Below, piece by piece: positions 1 through 2,803 of a DNA stretch of 38,589 bases. The translations under genes were made by a program, and so were the position numbers. The stretch is taken from the IMG/VR virus record IMGVR_UViG_3300031857_000056, positions 1 to 38,589 of that record; one strand, given 5' to 3'. The stretch's first letter is position 1; each line of letters opens with the position of its first letter. The notes below the pieces were generated by a model. It saw only the letters and a list, made by a program, of their open reading frames with translations, ran no database searches and was not told where the DNA came from. This DNA is from a virus. Taxonomy: Duplodnaviria; Heunggongvirae; Uroviricota; Caudoviricetes.

Positions 1-40
1 AGATAAAAAAGTAGTAAGTAATAGTTCTTTAACAAATTTT
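1..40 (+). promoter_or_regulatory. Truncated promoter/leader with boxA-like motif upstream of tRNA-Lys
   Basis: 1-40 is nearly identical to 2086-2125, which follows a TTGACA/TAAGAT promoter; GTTCTTTAACAA at 24-35. Confidence 0.6.
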
Positions 41-43
41 AAT

Positions 44-120
44 GGCCTTGTAGCTCAGTTGGTAGTAGCAGAAGCCTTTTAAGCTTTTGGTCGTGGGTTC
101 GAGTCCCACCGGGGCCACCA
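44..120 (+). tRNA. trnK: tRNA-Lys(UUU)
   Basis: Acceptor GGCCTTG/CGGGGCC, anticodon arm GAAGC-CTTTTAA-GCTTT, T-arm GTGGG-TTCGAGT-CCCAC, encoded CCA. Confidence 0.93.
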
Positions 121-124
121 TTTT

Positions 125-338
125 AACTGGTAATAAACGAAGTAAATCATATATTGTGGGACAACTACACTTTTAAGTATCGTGATTGATTACGAAAGCA
201 TTTTTTCCGTGTAGAATTTGACTTTCATCATTAAACATATTAAATGATTAACCCAAACACAACTGTGTGCTGTGCTGAAAAATGTCCGCTACACAGCGAT
301 GCTTACGTAGATAAGTAACTCAATGAATATTACCAGTT
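125..338 (+). ncRNA. Putative structured ncRNA of unknown family (element 1)
   Basis: Perfect 11-bp terminal stem 125-135/328-338 plus several internal helices; fills the gap between two tRNAs. Confidence 0.55.
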
Positions 339-346
339 CATTTAAC

Positions 347-422
347 GGAGTCATCGTCTAACGGTTTAGGATAATTCCCTTTCACGGAATAGATCAGAGT
401 TCGATTCTCTGTGGCTCTACCA
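347..422 (+). tRNA. trnE: tRNA-Glu(UUC)
   Basis: Acceptor GGAGTCA/TGGCTCT, anticodon arm ATTCC-CTTTCAC-GGAAT, T-arm CAGAG-TTCGATT-CTCTG, CCA. Confidence 0.92.
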
Positions 423-429
423 TTTGATG

Positions 430-587
430 TTTGGTTGTATAGCTAAGAAAAACAACTTGGTGGAGGGTATATAACCAAAATGCCCCTAGAGTTGGAAGTT
501 CTCTTAAAAAACTTCTTGGTTGCGGGGTTAGCGCATGGTATACTCTGTTTGTTGGGTGGATAGAGTATTCAATAGATACACCCAACA
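430..587 (+). ncRNA. Putative structured ncRNA ending in an H-type pseudoknot (element 2)
   Basis: 12-bp stem 430-441/468-479; hairpin 495-500/510-515; pseudoknot 540-546/562-568 with 550-558/579-587. Confidence 0.6.
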
Positions 588-601
588 TAATTTTTAGGAT
601 A

Positions 602-613
602 GTTCTTTATAAA
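602..613 (+). promoter_or_regulatory. boxA-like motif
   Basis: GTTCTTTATAAA, 10 nt before the tRNA at 624. Confidence 0.5.
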
Positions 614-623
614 CAATTTAAAC

Positions 624-698
624 AGCTGGCGGCAGGTTATTATTTGACGATGGCTCATAACCATTGGTAACTAAGTGAGATTCTTAGGCGAGCGACCA
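624..698 (+). tRNA. Atypical tRNA(CAU), initiator-like or degenerate
   Basis: Anticodon arm GATGG-CTCATAA-CCATT, T-arm CTAAG-TGAGATT-CTTAG, acceptor with A1:G72 and G5:G68 mismatches, weak D-arm, CCA end. Confidence 0.65.
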
Positions 699-706
699 TT
701 TGTAAT

Positions 707-778
707 GGCTGGGGCTTCAGCAAGCAAGATTCTTTCATACGGAATCTTTAATGAGGGCAGCACTCATACCAGCTACCA
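707..778 (+). tRNA. Atypical tRNA(CAU), elongator-Met-like anticodon loop
   Basis: Acceptor GGCTGG/CCAGCT, D-arm GCTT-CAGC-AAGC, 8-bp anticodon stem around TTCATAC, T-arm ATGAG-GGCAGCA-CTCAT, CCA. Confidence 0.65.
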
Positions 779-853
779 TTTATTGTTCCTTGAAATTTTA
801 ACTTTTGTGTAAATAAAATGTATTCTTGTTTGGCTCTCTAATATATATTAGAT

Positions 854-1633
854 ATGACAGAAGAAGAATACTTGTTAAATCCAAATAAATGTAATGTTTG
901 TAGTTCTATAATAAAATACAATTCTAGAGCTAGAGAAAGAAATAGAAAATATTGTAGTTTGCAATGTTTTGCAAAATCAAGGACTATACTCTCTATTGAT
1001 GATTATGAAAAAAATCCATTAAAATGCTGTGAATGTAATCAGATAATTTTGTTTTCTAAAAAAAGAAAACGAAAAAAAGTATATTTTTGTGGCAATAAAT
1101 GTGCGGCTATTTATAGAGGTAGAAACTTTAAGTTAAGTGATGCTGGACTAAAAAGTTTAATAGAAAAACATAAGGTAATACAGAAGAAAGTTTGGACTAA
1201 AGAAAAAAGGTTGGAACATTCATTGAAAATGAAGAAAGCAGTGGATGATAATCCAGAATCTTATTCTAGTAAAAATGTTTGTGGTAGAGTTAAAACAATT
1301 AAGACTATAGATAGTTTAGGTAATGAAACTAGTTGTCTTGGTAAATGGGAATTATTGGTAATAGATTATTTAAACAAAAATAATATAAGATGGTCAAATA
1401 AGATTGAAGAAAATTTCCAATATTATTGGAATGAATCTTACCACAGATATTTTCCAGACTTTAAATTATTAGATTATGATAATGTCTTTATTGAAGTTAA
1501 AGGATATGAAAGAGATAGAGACAAAGCTAAGTGGGAACAATTTCCACATAAACTAATAATTATAAAAAAAGAAGAAATTGAAAAGTTAAAAACAAATAAA
1601 TTTCAGTTGACTTTTGAAAATTTGACACTATAG
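854..1633 (+). CDS. Free-standing putative endonuclease: N-terminal Cys-rich Zn-finger repeats plus PD-(D/E)XK (TnsA-N-like) nuclease domain
   Basis: CxxC...YCSxxC repeats; YFPDF...FIEVKG motif; located inside a tRNA array. Confidence 0.78.
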   Translation: MTEEEYLLNPNKCNVCSSIIKYNSRARERNRKYCSLQCFAKSRTILSIDDYEKNPLKCCECNQIILFSKKRKRKKVYFCGNKCAAIYRGRNFKLSDAGLKSLIEKHKVIQKKVWTKEKRLEHSLKMKKAVDDNPESYSSKNVCGRVKTIKTIDSLGNETSCLGKWELLVIDYLNKNNIRWSNKIEENFQYYWNESYHRYFPDFKLLDYDNVFIEVKGYERDRDKAKWEQFPHKLIIIKKEEIEKLKTNKFQLTFENLTL

Positions 1634-1634
1634 T
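1607..1634 (+). promoter_or_regulatory. sigma70-type promoter
   Basis: TTGACT (1607-1612), 16-nt spacer, TATAGT (1629-1634); upstream of boxA and tRNA-fMet. Confidence 0.55.
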
Positions 1635-1652
1635 TAGTATATAAGATTTGAT

Positions 1653-1664
1653 GTTCTTTTAAAA
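1653..1664 (+). promoter_or_regulatory. boxA-like motif
   Basis: GTTCTTTTAAAA immediately before the tRNA at 1668. Confidence 0.5.
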
Positions 1665-1667
1665 ATT

Positions 1668-1750: not shown

Positions 1751-1844
1751 GGTTCCGTAGTTTAACGGTAGAACGCAACGCTTATAACGTTGATAAGCTC
1801 TAGATTTGAGCACGGTCTCGGTTCGAATCCGGGCGGAACCACCA
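1751..1844 (+). tRNA. tRNA(UAU), nominally Ile, with 24-nt variable arm
   Basis: Acceptor GGTTCCG/CGGAACC, anticodon arm CAACG-CTTATAA-CGTTG, V-arm hairpin GCTC-TAGATTT-GAGC, canonical T-loop, CCA. Confidence 0.85.
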
Positions 1845-1865
1845 AATTTAGGAACTATATCGTGC

Positions 1866-1960
1866 GTAGAGAAACATTAATAATGACTCTACTATTCGTG
1901 AAAGTCTAACGGTAACTCTTCCATATCGTAAATGATGGTGCAAATCCATTGGAAGAACAA
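1866..1960 (+). ncRNA. Hairpin plus tRNA top-half-like element, possibly a pseudo-tRNA (element 3)
   Basis: GTAGAG/CTCTAC hairpin 1866-1892; TCTTCC 1917-1922 pairs GGAAGA 1951-1956 around the T-arm-like GATGG-TGCAAAT-CCATT; ends ACAA. Confidence 0.4.
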
Positions 1961-1968
1961 TTTTAAAT

Positions 1969-2045
1969 GGCTAGGTAGCCCAAAGGCAGGAGGCAGCACT
2001 CTCAAAAAGTGTACAGTGTCAGTTCGAATCTGACCCTAGCTACCA
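1969..2045 (+). tRNA. trnL: tRNA-Leu(CAA), short variable loop
   Basis: Acceptor GGCTAGG/CCTAGCT, arm GCACT-CTCAAAA-AGTGT, 5-nt variable loop, A73, CCA. Confidence 0.88.
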
Positions 2046-2061
2046 TTTTTTGAAAAAGCAG

Positions 2062-2089
2062 TTGACATCAGAAGATGATGTGGTAAGAT
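2062..2089 (+). promoter_or_regulatory. sigma70-type promoter with extended -10
   Basis: TTGACA 2062-2067, 16-nt spacer, TG-n-TAAGAT ending 2089. Confidence 0.75.
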
Positions 2090-2108
2090 AAAAGAGTAGT
2101 AAGTGATG

Positions 2109-2121
2109 GTTCTTTAAACAA
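2109..2121 (+). promoter_or_regulatory. boxA-like motif
   Basis: GTTCTTTAAACAA before tRNA-Leu(UAA). Confidence 0.55.
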
Positions 2122-2126
2122 TTTAT

Positions 2127-2202
2127 GCCTATGTAGACCAACGGCAGAGTCACGAAACTTAAAATTTCGGTAGTACTGGTTCGAATCCAGTCATAGGCAC
2201 CA
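2127..2202 (+). tRNA. trnL: tRNA-Leu(UAA), short variable loop
   Basis: Acceptor GCCTATG/CATAGGC, arm CGAAA-CTTAAAA-TTTCG, 5-nt variable loop, CCA. Confidence 0.9.
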
Positions 2203-2212
2203 TTTTTTGATA

Positions 2213-2224
2213 GTTCTTTAACAA
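2213..2224 (+). promoter_or_regulatory. boxA-like motif
   Basis: GTTCTTTAACAA, one mismatch to rrn boxA GCTCTTTAACAA. Confidence 0.6.
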
Positions 2225-2229
2225 TTTAA

Positions 2230-2520
2230 GATAGTGGCGGAACAACCTTTGTATAGGGGTAACGCACAATAGTGGTGAAGAATCATTATTGGTTGGAGTA
2301 ATAATGTGCAGTGTAAGTCTATGGCGGATTGTGGGTCGTACAACCTATAATTCAAGCGTAACGACATCGTAGCTAAAATAAATGATATATCGTAGGTCGT
2401 TGTGGGAAACCAATCCCATCAATCGTTAACATAGAGAGTAATTAACTTTATGGATTGTGGATGAATAACGGTGCATATTGTGAAACTTGGAGGTAATCAT
2501 TAGTCCTTCCTATTTGAATT
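2230..2520 (+). ncRNA. Putative ~290-nt structured ncRNA of unknown family (element 4)
   Basis: Follows boxA in the position a tRNA occupies elsewhere; many helices (2349-2356/2513-2520, 2360-2365/2396-2401, 2420-2424/2453-2457, 2285-2290/2300-2305); no ORF in the track. Confidence 0.55.
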
Positions 2521-2525
2521 TAAAT

Positions 2526-2598
2526 GCGGGTCAAGTGTAAAGAGGGCACGCTGGTCTACCAGATCAGAAGGCGAAATGCAAAGTTCGGACCCGCTCCA
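2526..2598 (+). tRNA. tRNA-Gly(ACC), rare anticodon, atypical T-arm
   Basis: Acceptor GCGGGTC/GACCCGC with U73 (Gly identity), arm CTGGT-CTACCAG-ATCAG, T-arm CGAA-ATGCAAAG-TTCG, CCA. Confidence 0.72.
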
Positions 2599-2611
2599 GT
2601 TTTTTTAAAAT

Positions 2612-2704
2612 GGCTCTGTGATGTATGGTGCATGGGCAGACTTATAATCTGTATAATCCCTAGATTTGGGTGCTGATAGGGTTCAATTCCCTACGGAGCC
2701 ACCA
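2612..2704 (+). tRNA. Second tRNA(UAU), nominally Ile, with 24-nt variable arm
   Basis: Acceptor GGCTCTG/CGGAGCC, arm GCAGA-CTTATAA-TCTGT, V-arm CCC-TAGATTT-GGG, T-arm TAGGG-TTCAATT-CCCTA, CCA. Confidence 0.85.
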
Positions 2705-2727
2705 TTTTTTAAAGTAAAAGTATTTAC

Positions 2728-2803
2728 GGGTCAATAGCTCAATGGTTAGAGCGTAGAACTCATAATTCTTTGGTTATCGGTTCAAGTCCGGTTTGACCCA
2801 CCA
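2728..2803 (+). tRNA. tRNA(CAU), probably Ile2 (lysidine type) or Met
   Basis: Canonical cloverleaf, acceptor GGGTCAA/TTGACCC, loop CTCATAA, CCA; Ile2 versus Met cannot be decided by eye. Confidence 0.85.

What the first reader, a model, noticed from the sequence alone, without database searches (positions are those of the whole stretch)
1..2803. Candidate system: a boxA-led tRNA array that also carries several unknown structured RNAs
Seen: four non-tRNA, ORF-free, helix-rich segments (125-338, 430-587, 1866-1960, 2230-2520) sit within a few nt of tRNA ends or of a boxA motif, in the slots tRNAs occupy. About half of the tRNAs are non-canonical. Known: RNase P and 3' nucleases release RNAs flanked by tRNAs, and large phage ncRNAs such as GOLLD and ROOL lie near tRNA genes, but these segments are too short for either. 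Inferred: the array is an antiterminated transcription unit that produces a set of phage regulatory or decoy RNAs as well as tRNAs.
Basis: partly seen in the sequence, partly recalled or inferred. Interest (0 to 1): 0.78.

Follow-up and report, generated by a model that had tools for sequence, protein, structure and literature searches.

The report
Phage tRNA array carrying manA-like and wcaG-like RNAs
This phage's tRNA gene cluster also encodes two real, conserved folded RNAs, which are divergent relatives of the known but functionally unexplained phage RNAs manA and wcaG; the other two flagged stretches could not be shown to be RNA genes.

Summary
The array is real and starts at the window's left edge. 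It holds 8 tRNAs that the standard finders call, plus 3 more with altered elbows: 625-698, 707-778 and a tRNA-Gly-like gene at 2526-2598.

- **Segment D (2229-2515):** a strongly covarying RNA of about 290 nt. It is an enlarged relative of manA, with the same core, terminal hairpin and covarying closing helix. Rfam scores it at only 14 bits.
- **Segment B (about 433-586):** three hairpins plus a 3' pseudoknot, with covariation. Its likeness to wcaG is weak and one-way (30 bits, below threshold).
- **Segment A:** an insertion found at this one site only, in near-identical phages. It has terminal inverted repeats and a flanking 6-bp repeat.
- **Segment C:** no fold signal and only one near-identical copy elsewhere. 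A and C are both unproven.
- **boxA-like motif:** it matches the E. coli rrnB boxA at 15 of 16 bases and occurs almost only on the array strand, usually about 9 nt before an RNA gene.
- **Precedent:** the cultured cyanophage S-CREM1 has Rfam-grade wcaG and manA between its tRNAs.

This is a new variant of a known kind. This scan had already reached the same reading on other DNA.

The parts
1..43 (+). End of promoter P1 (-10 TAAGAT cut by the window edge) and the leader with boxA-like GTTCTTTAACAA at 24-35
   Evidence: The near-identical contig L015 shows TTGATC-17-TAAGAT just left of the window start, with a divergent ORF upstream. Motif scan.
44..120 (+). tRNA-Lys(UUU), canonical
   Evidence: ARAGORN and Rfam, 64 bits
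121..346 (+). Segment A: single-site insertion. Terminal inverted repeat 125-135/328-338; TTTAAC repeated at 122-127 and 341-346. Nature unresolved.
   Evidence: The empty site in L016, L003 and L020 is a 7-nt Lys-Glu spacer. Found only at this site in near-identical contigs. No copy in genome contigs. Fold z -1.82.
347..422 (+). tRNA-Glu(UUC), canonical
433..595 (+). Segment B, wcaG-like RNA. H1 433-438/452-457; UGGUGGAGGG 458-467; H2 465-470/480-485; H3 494-500/510-516; pseudoknot S1 540-546/562-568 and S2 551-558/579-586; U-run 591-595.
   Evidence: Rfam wcaG 30.2 bits against a threshold of 42, E 8.6e-4 to 5e-3. Covariation on 17 sequences.
602..613 (+). Internal boxA-like variant GTTCTTTATAAA, with no promoter before it
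625..698 (+). tRNA-like gene with CAU anticodon (656-658), T-loop TGAGATT, imperfect acceptor stem (5 of 7 pairs) and tail GACCA
   Evidence: Alignments. One compensatory acceptor pair against L023, and the T-stem covaries between the two types. Not called by ARAGORN or Rfam.
707..778 (+). tRNA(CAU) with a 4-nt D-loop (CAGC) and T-loop GGCAGCA
   Evidence: Cloverleaf 95.5% paired against 37-49% in slid controls; 12 of 22 pairs compensatory. Not called by ARAGORN or Rfam.
854..1633 (+). Free-standing endonuclease-like ORF (259 aa) with its own promoter-like site at 790-819
   Evidence: PHROG 945 'endonuclease', E 1e-5. tblastn to endonucleases of T4-like phages, E down to 1e-26; several of these lie within 1-2 kb of those phages' tRNA hits. 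No Pfam hit.
1607..1664 (+). Promoter-like TTGACT-16-TATAGT (1607-1634), then boxA-like variant 1653-1664
1668..1744 (+). tRNA(CAU)
1751..1844 (+). 94-nt tRNA with UAU anticodon and a long variable arm
   Evidence: Homologues in L115 and L159 keep the arm, with compensatory changes.
1845..1968 (+). Segment C: unproven. One hairpin (about 1866-1892) and a minihelix-like 3' half with T-loop-like TGCAAAT and no CCA end.
   Evidence: Fold z -0.39. Only one other copy, 99% identical, in L053. No Rfam hit at E up to 10.
1969..2045 (+). 77-nt class-I tRNA with CAA anticodon
2062..2120 (+). Promoter P2 TTGACA-16-TAAGAT (2062-2089), leader, and boxA-like 2109-2120
   Evidence: (10 of 12, TG before the -10). 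The module recurs 2-3 times per array in 35 loci.
2127..2202 (+). 76-nt class-I tRNA with UAA anticodon
   Evidence: In L016 an Rfam-grade group I intron lies where this gene's homologue sits.
2213..2224 (+). boxA-like GTTCTTTAACAA directly before D
   Evidence: Invariant in 15 of 16 D-class copies
2229..2515 (+). Segment D, enlarged manA-like RNA. Closing helix 2229-2234/2510-2515; core UGGCGGAACAAC-hairpin-GUAACGCAC 2235-2267; hairpin 2268-2290; large multi-stem insert 2301-2481; terminal hairpin 2489-2509.
2526..2598 (+). tRNA-Gly-like gene: G1-C72, C2-G71, G3-C70, U73; anticodon ACC (2558-2560); odd D- and T-loops
   Evidence: Compensatory changes in the acceptor and anticodon stems across loci. 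Not called by ARAGORN or Rfam.
2612..2704 (+). Second long-arm tRNA with UAU anticodon
   Evidence: 39 bits
2728..2803 (+). tRNA(CAU), last gene of the array; a convergent virion gene follows

Best explanation
Window 1-2803 is the stable-RNA gene array of a large T4-like or cyanomyovirus-like phage; a complete relative is 296 kb. It is read from at least three sigma-70-type promoters. Each is followed within about 15-25 nt by a copy of the rrn-type boxA sequence, and further boxA copies sit about 9 nt ahead of internal genes.

The array encodes 11 tRNA or tRNA-like genes, a free-standing endonuclease, and two non-tRNA structured RNAs. D is an enlarged member of the manA class, about 290 nt against about 190. 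B is a three-hairpin RNA resembling wcaG, extended by a 3' H-type pseudoknot.

Shown: the folds, their conservation and covariation, the shared manA core and closing helix, the sequence identity of the motif to the E. coli rrnB boxA, and the same wcaG/manA-between-tRNAs layout in cyanophage S-CREM1.

Inferred:
1. B and D are co-transcribed with the tRNAs and cut free by the tRNA-processing enzymes. RNase P at the 5' end of tRNA-Gly would set D's 3' end.
2. boxA recruits host NusB/NusE so that the long untranslated transcript escapes Rho termination.
3. D therefore acts as a free, stable RNA rather than as a leader riboswitch. It probably self-assembles, as manA RNAs do in vitro.

Segment A is a lineage-specific insertion, and segment C is probably spacer or a decayed tRNA. 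Neither is established as an RNA gene.
For: **D**
- A 33-nt core shared with D retrieved 94 IMG/VR stretches.
- 16 D-class copies give 97.1% paired cells and 30 of 78 compensatory pairs.
- The bases just 5' of UGGCGG pair with the bases just 3' of the terminal hairpin, using different sequences in different classes, as in the manA model.
- Shorter relatives with the same core hit Rfam manA full length at 30.6-34.5 bits, E 3e-5 to 4e-4.

**B**
- Rfam wcaG 30.2 bits; covariation in H1, H2 and both pseudoknot stems.
- A tandem B copy in L115 scores 35.2 bits.

**Context**
- S-CREM1 has the order wcaG (91 bits), tRNA-Met, tRNA-Leu, manA (100.6 bits), tRNA-Asn (PMC9964418 Table 4).
- In S-RSM4, wcaG lies about 90 nt before tRNA-Gly.
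- The window has the same order: tRNA(UAA), D, tRNA.
- No ORF or Shine-Dalgarno site follows D.

**boxA**
- The rrnB leader was read directly.
- There are 5 copies in the array, with about 1 match expected in the whole window.
- In 23 related arrays, 73 copies lie on the array strand against 1 on the opposite strand; 45 of them lie 1-11 nt before a tRNA.
- In the complete 296-kb relative, the exact motif occurs only 3 times, all within 1.35 kb of this array.
- boxA-like variants also precede manA-like RNAs in the distant L119 and L128.

**Promoters:**

**Self-assembly of manA in vitro:** preprint 10.64898/2026.07.01.735769.
Against: - No transcript data.
- D fails Rfam's manA threshold badly: 14.2 bits against 55.2.
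- B fails wcaG's threshold: 30.2 bits against 42. A model built from B-class copies does not find the canonical wcaG of S-CREM1 or S-RSM4, so the wcaG link is one-directional.
- Many short manA-like relatives do sit 10-20 nt before a ribosome-binding site and a start codon, which fits the classical cis-regulatory view.
- The tight spacing of about 9 nt between the motif and RNA 5' ends is not needed for antitermination. It could point to a processing signal or to copied leader-plus-gene cassettes.
- The other, larger tRNA array of the 296-kb relative lacks the exact motif.
- Cage formation is known only in vitro, for shorter manA RNAs.
Confidence: 0.6

Rival explanations
1. B and D are cis-acting leader elements, the classical riboswitch-candidate view of wcaG and manA. 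They would sense a signal and tune transcription into the downstream genes, here tRNAs rather than proteins.
For: About 60 shorter relatives of D sit in 5' UTRs with a ribosome-binding site and ATG 10-20 nt downstream. The manA of ACG-2014f precedes an oxygenase gene. B ends in a pseudoknot followed by a U-run (591-595). RNAalifold finds a competing pairing of the CCCC tract with either flanking G-run, as expected of a switch. Weinberg 2010 (PMC2864571) rated both as probable cis-regulators.
Against: D has no terminator, no ribosome-binding site and no ORF after it, and is followed 10 nt later by a tRNA. The canonical S-CREM1 manA is wedged between two tRNAs with gaps of 0-1 nt. No ligand is known 16 years after the motifs were described. 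manA RNAs assemble into defined multimers without ligand.
Confidence: 0.2
2. The repeated GTTCTTTAACAA motif is not an antitermination signal. It would instead be a processing or leader signal (RNase E or RNase P context), a site for a phage protein, or the junction of duplicated leader-plus-gene cassettes.
For: 45 of 73 copies lie 1-11 nt (mode 9) before a tRNA 5' end, a spacing antitermination does not need. There are about 3 copies per array where one per promoter would do. Modules are shuffled between arrays next to the motif; for example D lies before tRNA-Glu in L014. The larger tRNA array of the 296-kb relative lacks the motif.
Against: 15 of 16 bases match the E. coli rrnB boxA and its 3' flank. 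Three window copies lie at about +13 to +25 from promoter-like sites, as boxA does in rrn leaders. It does not fit a sigma-70 promoter: the spacer is 14 nt and the -35 region is not conserved among D-class copies. The motif is confined to the stable-RNA array, as boxA is to rrn operons.
Confidence: 0.25
3. Segments A and C are not RNA genes. A would be a small mobile or recombinational insertion, and C a spacer or the remnant of a decayed tRNA.
For: A interrupts a spacer that is otherwise 7 nt. It has an 8-11 bp terminal inverted repeat and TTTAAC on both sides, like a target-site duplication. Neither A nor C shows a fold signal beyond shuffles, and both occur only in near-identical phages. 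C has a T-arm-like hairpin and an acceptor-like helix but no CCA end.
Against: A is single-copy: no other insertion site in viral, genome or metagenome collections. An 11-bp terminal helix is also what a closed structured RNA would show. Lack of diversity means structure was untestable, not disproved.
Confidence: 0.55

Closest known systems
manA RNA motif (Rfam RF01745; Weinberg et al. 2010, PMC2864571)
   Same: The UG-RC-xGAAYAA-hairpin-UAA core. The terminal hairpin with a UAAU-type loop preceded by GAAA. A closing helix that joins the bases just before the core to those just after the terminal hairpin. Occurrence in T4-like aquatic phages. In S-CREM1, placement between tRNA-Leu and another tRNA.
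   Different: D is about 290 nt against about 190: a multi-stem domain of about 180 nt replaces a short hairpin. D lacks the 5' P1 hairpin and has a boxA-like motif there instead. It scores 14 bits against a threshold of 55. No protein gene follows it.
wcaG RNA motif (Rfam RF01761)
   Same: Three hairpins joined by UGGUG...GGG and CCC... linkers. Found in aquatic T4-like phages. Lies next to tRNA genes in S-CREM1 and S-RSM4.
   Different: B scores 30 bits against a threshold of 42, and the reciprocal model search fails. B adds a covarying 3' H-type pseudoknot and a U-run that the Rfam model lacks. B directly follows tRNA-Glu.
tRNA array of cyanophage S-CREM1 (OP535465.1; PMC9964418)
   Same: One strand carries tRNAs interleaved with wcaG, manA and other small RNAs, with an endonuclease gene close by.
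   Different: The S-CREM1 RNAs are canonical, above Rfam thresholds. No boxA-like motif was seen in the stretch around them read (not systematically searched). The authors treat them as cis-regulatory elements.
GOLLD and ROOL, large phage RNAs next to tRNA genes that form RNA-only multimers
   Same: Ornate phage RNAs embedded in or beside tRNA arrays. A syntenic relative (L115) carries an Rfam-grade GOLLD in its array. manA RNAs also multimerise in vitro.
   Different: D and B are much shorter, have no sequence or model match to either, and their assembly is untested.
Phage T4 tRNA cluster with stable RNAs C and D (species 1 and 2) and the SegB endonuclease (own knowledge)
   Same: tRNAs, small stable RNAs of unknown function released by tRNA-processing enzymes, and a free-standing endonuclease gene in one cluster.
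   Different: No sequence relation was tested or is known. T4 has no boxA repeats that I know of.
rrn-operon boxA / Nus-factor antitermination, also reported upstream of some CRISPR arrays (own knowledge)
   Same: A near-identical boxA sequence a short distance downstream of sigma-70 promoters, ahead of long untranslated structured transcripts.
   Different: It is repeated before individual genes at a fixed spacing of about 9 nt, on a phage. Nus binding is untested.

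Membership tests
manA (RF01745) | Covariance-model score at or above the gathering score (55.2 bits) | tested here: not met
   14.2 bits, E 0.24 over 416 nt, plus a local 9.5-bit hit on the terminal hairpin. Shorter relatives with the same core reach 30.6-34.5 bits.
manA (RF01745) | Closing helix or pseudoknot: the bases just 5' of the core pair with the bases just 3' of the terminal hairpin | tested here: met
   2229-2234 pairs with 2510-2515. The pairing is kept with different sequences across classes.
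manA (RF01745) | Core junction UG-RC-xGAAYAA, hairpin, UAA-G-Y | tested here: met
   UGGCGGAACAAC-hairpin-GUAACGC aligns to the model's core. Compared with the S-CREM1 manA sequence.
manA (RF01745) | 5' P1 hairpin upstream of the closing helix | tested here: not met
   D-class copies have the boxA-like motif there. The shorter relatives do have P1.
manA (RF01745) | Position in the 5' UTR of a protein gene | tested here: not met
   A tRNA-Gly-like gene follows after 10 nt. The canonical S-CREM1 manA also lies between tRNAs, so this feature is not universal.
manA (RF01745) | Homo-oligomeric assembly through kissing loops | not testable with these tools
   Reported in vitro for shorter manA RNAs. 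D has invariant complementary loops (AAUGAU and AUCAUU) and a palindromic UAAUUA loop, which is only suggestive.
wcaG (RF01761) | Covariance-model score at or above the gathering score (42 bits) | tested here: not met
   30.2 bits, full-length alignment, E 8.6e-4 over 501 nt or 5e-3 over 3 kb.
wcaG (RF01761) | Three-hairpin architecture with conserved G-rich and C-rich linkers | tested here: inconclusive
   H1 covaries, H2 partly, H3 is invariant. RNAalifold prefers a competing pairing for the CCCC tract.
wcaG (RF01761) | Reciprocal detection: a model of B-class copies finds canonical wcaG | tested here: not met
   R1 gives no hit on the S-CREM1 wcaG and only 13.3 bits beside, not on, the S-RSM4 wcaG.
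rrn-type boxA | Match to the boxA consensus and its flank | tested here: met
   The window's GTTCTTTAACAATTTA differs at one base from the GCTCTTTAACAATTTA of E. coli rrnB.
rrn-type boxA | Lies in the transcribed leader a short way downstream of a promoter | tested here: met
   Three of five window copies follow promoter-like sites. Two are internal.
rrn-type boxA | Binds NusB-NusE and suppresses Rho termination | not testable with these tools
   No host genome or binding assay is available.
tRNA (genes at 707-778 and 2526-2598) | Cloverleaf kept by compensatory changes | tested here: met
   707-778: 95.5% paired, 12 of 22 pairs compensatory. 2526-2598: compensatory acceptor and anticodon-stem changes, seen by eye.
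tRNA (genes at 707-778 and 2526-2598) | Canonical D-loop GG and T-loop TTCRANY elbow | tested here: not met
   T-loops are GGCAGCA and AUGCAAAG, and the D-loop of 707-778 is CAGC. Neither ARAGORN nor Rfam calls them.
GOLLD / ROOL | Covariance-model match | tested here: not met
   No hit in the window even at E up to 10. GOLLD scores 212 bits in the related array L115.
MITE-type mobile element (segment A) | Terminal inverted repeats plus a target-site duplication | tested here: met
   TGGTAATA...TATTACCA, flanked by TTTAAC on both sides of a 7-nt empty site.
MITE-type mobile element (segment A) | Multiple copies at different sites | tested here: not met
   Only this site was found in viral, genome and metagenome scans.
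tmRNA (considered for segment B) | tRNA-like domain and a tag reading frame; covariance-model match | tested here: not met
   No tmRNA hit in the window at E up to 10. By eye, no reading frame through B is shared with its homologues (sequences). B's core module does occur inside Rfam-grade tmRNAs of other phages.

The most novel reading that the evidence does not exclude
manA-class RNAs, and perhaps wcaG-class RNAs, are not riboswitches. They would be stable, free RNAs that form a standard accessory of phage tRNA arrays. They would be transcribed under rrn-style boxA protection and cut out by tRNA-processing enzymes; in one distant phage a pistol ribozyme lies 8 nt downstream. They would then assemble into RNA-only multimers or cages, like manA in vitro and like GOLLD/ROOL. 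Such assemblies might act during infection on the tRNA pool or on host anti-tRNA defences. D would be an enlarged cage subunit. Earlier notes of this scan report its ends joined in environmental RNA, which would make it circular; that was not testable here.
Probability: 0.25. Interest if true: 0.85.

Novelty: new variant of a known kind. Interest (0 to 1): 0.55.

Why it matters
manA and wcaG have been listed as orphan riboswitch candidates since 2010.

Here an enlarged manA-class RNA and a wcaG-like RNA sit as genes among tRNAs, behind rrn-type boxA leaders and with no protein gene to regulate. The canonical forms have the same layout in a cultured cyanophage. Together these make a different function directly testable: a processed, stable and possibly self-assembling RNA made alongside phage tRNAs.

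This links manA to the GOLLD/ROOL theme of ornate phage RNAs next to tRNA genes. It also gives concrete constructs and a culturable system (S-CREM1) for experiments.

The result also shows that standard tRNA finders miss about a quarter of the tRNA genes in such arrays.

Tried and rejected
- **Own genome:** none is held for this window.
- **BLAST of the array against cultured phages:** only tRNA-level matches.
- **D as RNase P RNA, group I intron, GOLLD or ROOL:** no Rfam hit at E up to 10.
- **B as a degenerate tmRNA:** no tmRNA hit. By eye, no reading frame is conserved between the window and L003-type copies (sequences).
- **Reciprocal B-to-wcaG model search:** failed.
- **Segment A as a multi-copy MITE:** pattern scans of viral, genome and metagenome collections found only the same insertion site. 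The few differences between A variants do not test any helix.
- **Segment C:** one near-identical copy only.
- **boxA-like motif as a sigma-70 promoter before D:** rejected. The spacer is 14 nt and the -35 is not conserved.
- **boxA-like motif as a T4 MotA-box middle promoter:** rejected on spacing (own knowledge of the consensus).
- **RtcB ligase in the 296-kb relative:** absent. A T4 Rnl1-like ligase is present, but this says nothing decisive about circularisation.
- **Covariance model of D:** not built; at about 300 columns it would exceed the time limit.

Full report
**What is in the window**

The window is 35% G+C. Its genes are mostly virion, baseplate and tail-fibre genes, with about 30% amino-acid identity to Synechococcus myoviruses. 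No whole genome is held for it. A relative with 60% identity in the neighbouring virion protein is a complete 296-kb phage.

ARAGORN and Rfam agree on eight tRNAs between 44 and 2803, all on the + strand. The near-identical contig L015 shows a divergent ORF and a TTGATC-17-TAAGAT promoter just left of the window start, so the array begins at position 1. A convergent virion gene ends it at 2807.

**Segment D (2229-2515)**

BLAST against loci fetched through the neighbouring proteins showed D conserved at 82-95% identity. A pattern taken from its 5' core (GTGGCGGAACAA, a gap, GTAACGC) found 94 IMG/VR stretches.

Sixteen of these are D-class copies. On their alignment, 78 pairs are 97.1% paired against 37-47% when partners are slid. 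Thirty pairs carry compensatory changes, and no shuffle out of 500 does as well.

About 60 other hits are RNAs of about 150-170 nt. They have the same core and lie 10-20 nt upstream of a ribosome-binding site and an ATG.

In every class, the 5-7 bases just before UGGCGG pair with the bases just after a terminal GGAGG/CCUCC-type or GUGGG/CCCAC-type hairpin. The paired sequences differ between classes: AAGATAG/CTATTTT, GTCTGTG/CACAGAC, TTTTGTG/CACAAAA, ATCTTTG/CAAAGAG and others. This is the closing helix of the Rfam manA model.

The shorter relatives hit manA full length at 30.6-34.5 bits, E 3e-5 to 4e-4. D itself reaches only 14.2 bits, because a multi-stem domain of about 180 nt (2301-2481) replaces a short hairpin. 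I therefore read D as an enlarged manA-class RNA. It is a relative, not a member by Rfam's criterion.

**Segment B (433-586)**

Rfam's wcaG model aligns full length at 30.2 bits against a threshold of 42.

Seventeen B-class copies support three hairpins and a 3' H-type pseudoknot, S1 540-546/562-568 and S2 551-558/579-586. Together these give 90.8% paired cells against 40-54% slid, with 9 compensatory pairs. L128 and L159 change both pseudoknot stems in a compensatory way.

The wcaG link is weaker than the manA link:
- H3 and the G-rich and C-rich linkers never vary.
- RNAalifold prefers another partner for the CCCC tract.
- A model built from B-class copies does not recover the canonical wcaG of S-CREM1 or S-RSM4.

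A tandem B copy in L115 scores 35.2 bits for wcaG.

**Segments A and C**

*Segment A.* A folds only slightly better than shuffles, z -1.82. It occurs only between tRNA-Lys and tRNA-Glu, in 6 IMG/VR loci and one metagenome contig, at 94-100% identity. Related arrays have a 7-nt spacer at that place. With A present, TTTAAC flanks an element that starts TGGTAATA and ends TATTACCA. That looks like an insertion with terminal inverted repeats and a target duplication. No other copy exists in the viral, genome or metagenome collections, so a mobile element is not shown either.

*Segment C.* C has no fold signal, z -0.39, and one 99% copy elsewhere. Its 3' half looks like an acceptor/T-arm minihelix without a CCA end.

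Both A and C stay unproven.

**More tRNAs than the finders call**

- **707-778:** a cloverleaf with a CAU anticodon, a 4-nt D-loop and T-loop GGCAGCA. It is 95.5% paired against 37-49% slid, with 12 of 22 pairs compensatory, including a fully exchanged acceptor stem in L003 and L016.
- **2526-2598:** this gene has, from my own knowledge of E. coli tRNA-Gly, the Gly identity set: G1-C72, C2-G71, G3-C70, U73, C35 and C36. Its anticodon is ACC, or UCC in relatives. Its stems show compensatory changes.
- **625-698:** a CAU tRNA-like gene with an imperfect acceptor stem.

Two called tRNAs have UAU anticodons and long variable arms. Two have Leu anticodons but class-I size.

**The boxA-like motif**

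GTTCTTTAAMAA with up to one mismatch occurs five times on the + strand of the array. About one match is expected in the whole window. I read the E. coli rrnB leader directly: it has GCTCTTTAACAATTTA where the window has GTTCTTTAACAATTTA.

Three copies lie about 13-25 nt downstream of promoter-like sites: P1 in L015, 1607-1634, and P2 at 2062-2089. Two copies, at 602 and 2213, are internal.

In 23 related arrays there are 73 copies on the array strand and 1 on the opposite strand. Forty-five of them lie 1-11 nt (mode 9) before an ARAGORN tRNA. In the complete 296-kb relative the exact motif occurs three times, all within 1.35 kb of this array, and not in that phage's larger tRNA array. boxA-like variants also precede manA-like RNAs in the distant L119 and L128.

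The sequence identity is solid. Nus binding and antitermination are inferred. The fixed spacing leaves room for a processing or cassette-junction role.

**Comparison with what is known**

Weinberg et al. 2010 described manA and wcaG together. They found them in marine metagenomes and T4-like cyanophages and rated them probable cis-regulators (PMC2864571).

In the cultured cyanophage S-CREM1, Rfam-grade wcaG (91 bits) and manA (100.6 bits) lie inside the tRNA array. The order is wcaG, tRNA-Met, tRNA-Leu, manA, tRNA-Asn, with gaps of 0-1 nt around manA (PMC9964418 Table 4). In S-RSM4, wcaG lies about 90 nt before tRNA-Gly and is annotated as a protein. In ACG-2014f, a manA precedes an oxygenase gene. 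Both contexts therefore exist for the family, and the window's layout has a published though unremarked precedent.

A 2026 preprint reports that manA RNAs form 8-, 10- and 60-subunit RNA-only assemblies in vitro through kissing loops (10.64898/2026.07.01.735769). The syntenic array L115 carries GOLLD at 212 bits. From my own knowledge, the T4 tRNA cluster likewise holds two stable RNAs of unknown function and the SegB endonuclease.

**Mechanism proposed**

*Shown:* folds, conservation, gene order and motif identity.

*Inferred:* sigma-70 promoters drive untranslated multi-gene transcripts, and boxA recruits host Nus factors against Rho. RNase P and the 3'-end nucleases release the tRNAs, and with them B and D. 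D's closing helix brings its ends together 10 nt before the RNase P site of tRNA-Gly. D then acts as a free RNA, probably a self-assembling one. It has invariant complementary loops (AAUGAU and AUCAUU) and a palindromic UAAUUA loop. B's role is unknown.

The riboswitch reading, a non-Nus role for the motif, and 'A and C are not genes' are kept as rivals.

**Earlier notes of this scan**

Earlier notes reached the same manA/wcaG reading on other DNA. They also claimed high abundance and joined ends in environmental RNA.

**Verdict**

This is a new variant of a known kind. Its interest is moderate, because it makes the function of manA and wcaG testable in a new way.

Noticed in passing
L119:9170-9520: In a distant, G+C-richer phage array, an enlarged manA-like RNA (276 nt, 32.5 bits) is preceded by a boxA-like TGTTCTTTTGATAACAA. 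An Rfam-grade pistol self-cleaving ribozyme (52 bits) follows 8 nt later. A tmRNA lies about 400 nt upstream.
   Followed up: partly
L151:11151-11508 and L135:4801-5216: The core module of segment B (hairpin, UGGUGGAGGG, hairpin, CCCCUAG, hairpin) lies inside Rfam-grade phage tmRNA genes. In the L151 alignment it sits just 5' of the 3' strand of the long tmRNA helix, in the region of the last pseudoknot. The same module also follows tRNAs, or precedes terminators or ORFs, in many other phage contigs.
   Followed up: partly
L115:1359-1821: An array syntenic with the window's (Glu, B-like, CAU tRNA, long-arm UAU tRNA, Leu tRNAs) also carries a GOLLD RNA (212 bits) with an embedded tRNA.
   Followed up: no
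L016:5730-5922: A group I intron (72 bits) lies where the homologue of the window's tRNA(UAA) gene (2127-2202) sits. The window's copy has no intron.
   Followed up: no
window 1751-1844 and 2612-2704: Two tRNAs with UAU (AUA-reading) anticodons carry long variable arms whose loop CUAGAUUUG is conserved. The two tRNAs with Leu anticodons (1969-2045, 2127-2202) are class-I size. Which amino acids they accept is unclear.
   Followed up: partly
window 2558-2560: The tRNA-Gly-like gene has an ACC anticodon (A34), which is rare in bacteria. Relatives L102 and L060 have UCC.
   Followed up: no
L164:1323-1436 (S-RSM4 29622-29735): The published wcaG RNA of cyanophage S-RSM4 coincides with a gene annotated as hypothetical protein SRSM4_042. 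This is probably a mis-annotation of the RNA.
   Followed up: no
L013:3490-3565 and L144:2140-2230: Some B-class copies carry an extra domain of about 75 nt inserted between H2 and H3.
   Followed up: no
L015:3125-3180: The 99.5%-identical relative has a 26-nt duplication in the first leader, which gives two boxA-like copies before tRNA-Lys.
   Followed up: no
G006 (296-kb relative) 287636-288202: A T4 Rnl1-type RNA ligase gene lies about 7 kb from the boxA-bearing array. No RtcB was found. The phage's second, larger tRNA array (191-201 kb, 22 tRNAs) lacks the exact boxA-like motif.
   Followed up: partly
window 5798-7209: Two adjacent 2OG-Fe(II) oxygenase genes lie here. In cyanophage ACG-2014f, a manA RNA sits directly upstream of a gene pair of the same type.
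   Followed up: no
L003:9945-10185: Related arrays hold a further ORF-free module of about 130 nt between B and the CAU tRNA-like gene. It is led by its own boxA-like variant and is absent from the window.
   Followed up: no
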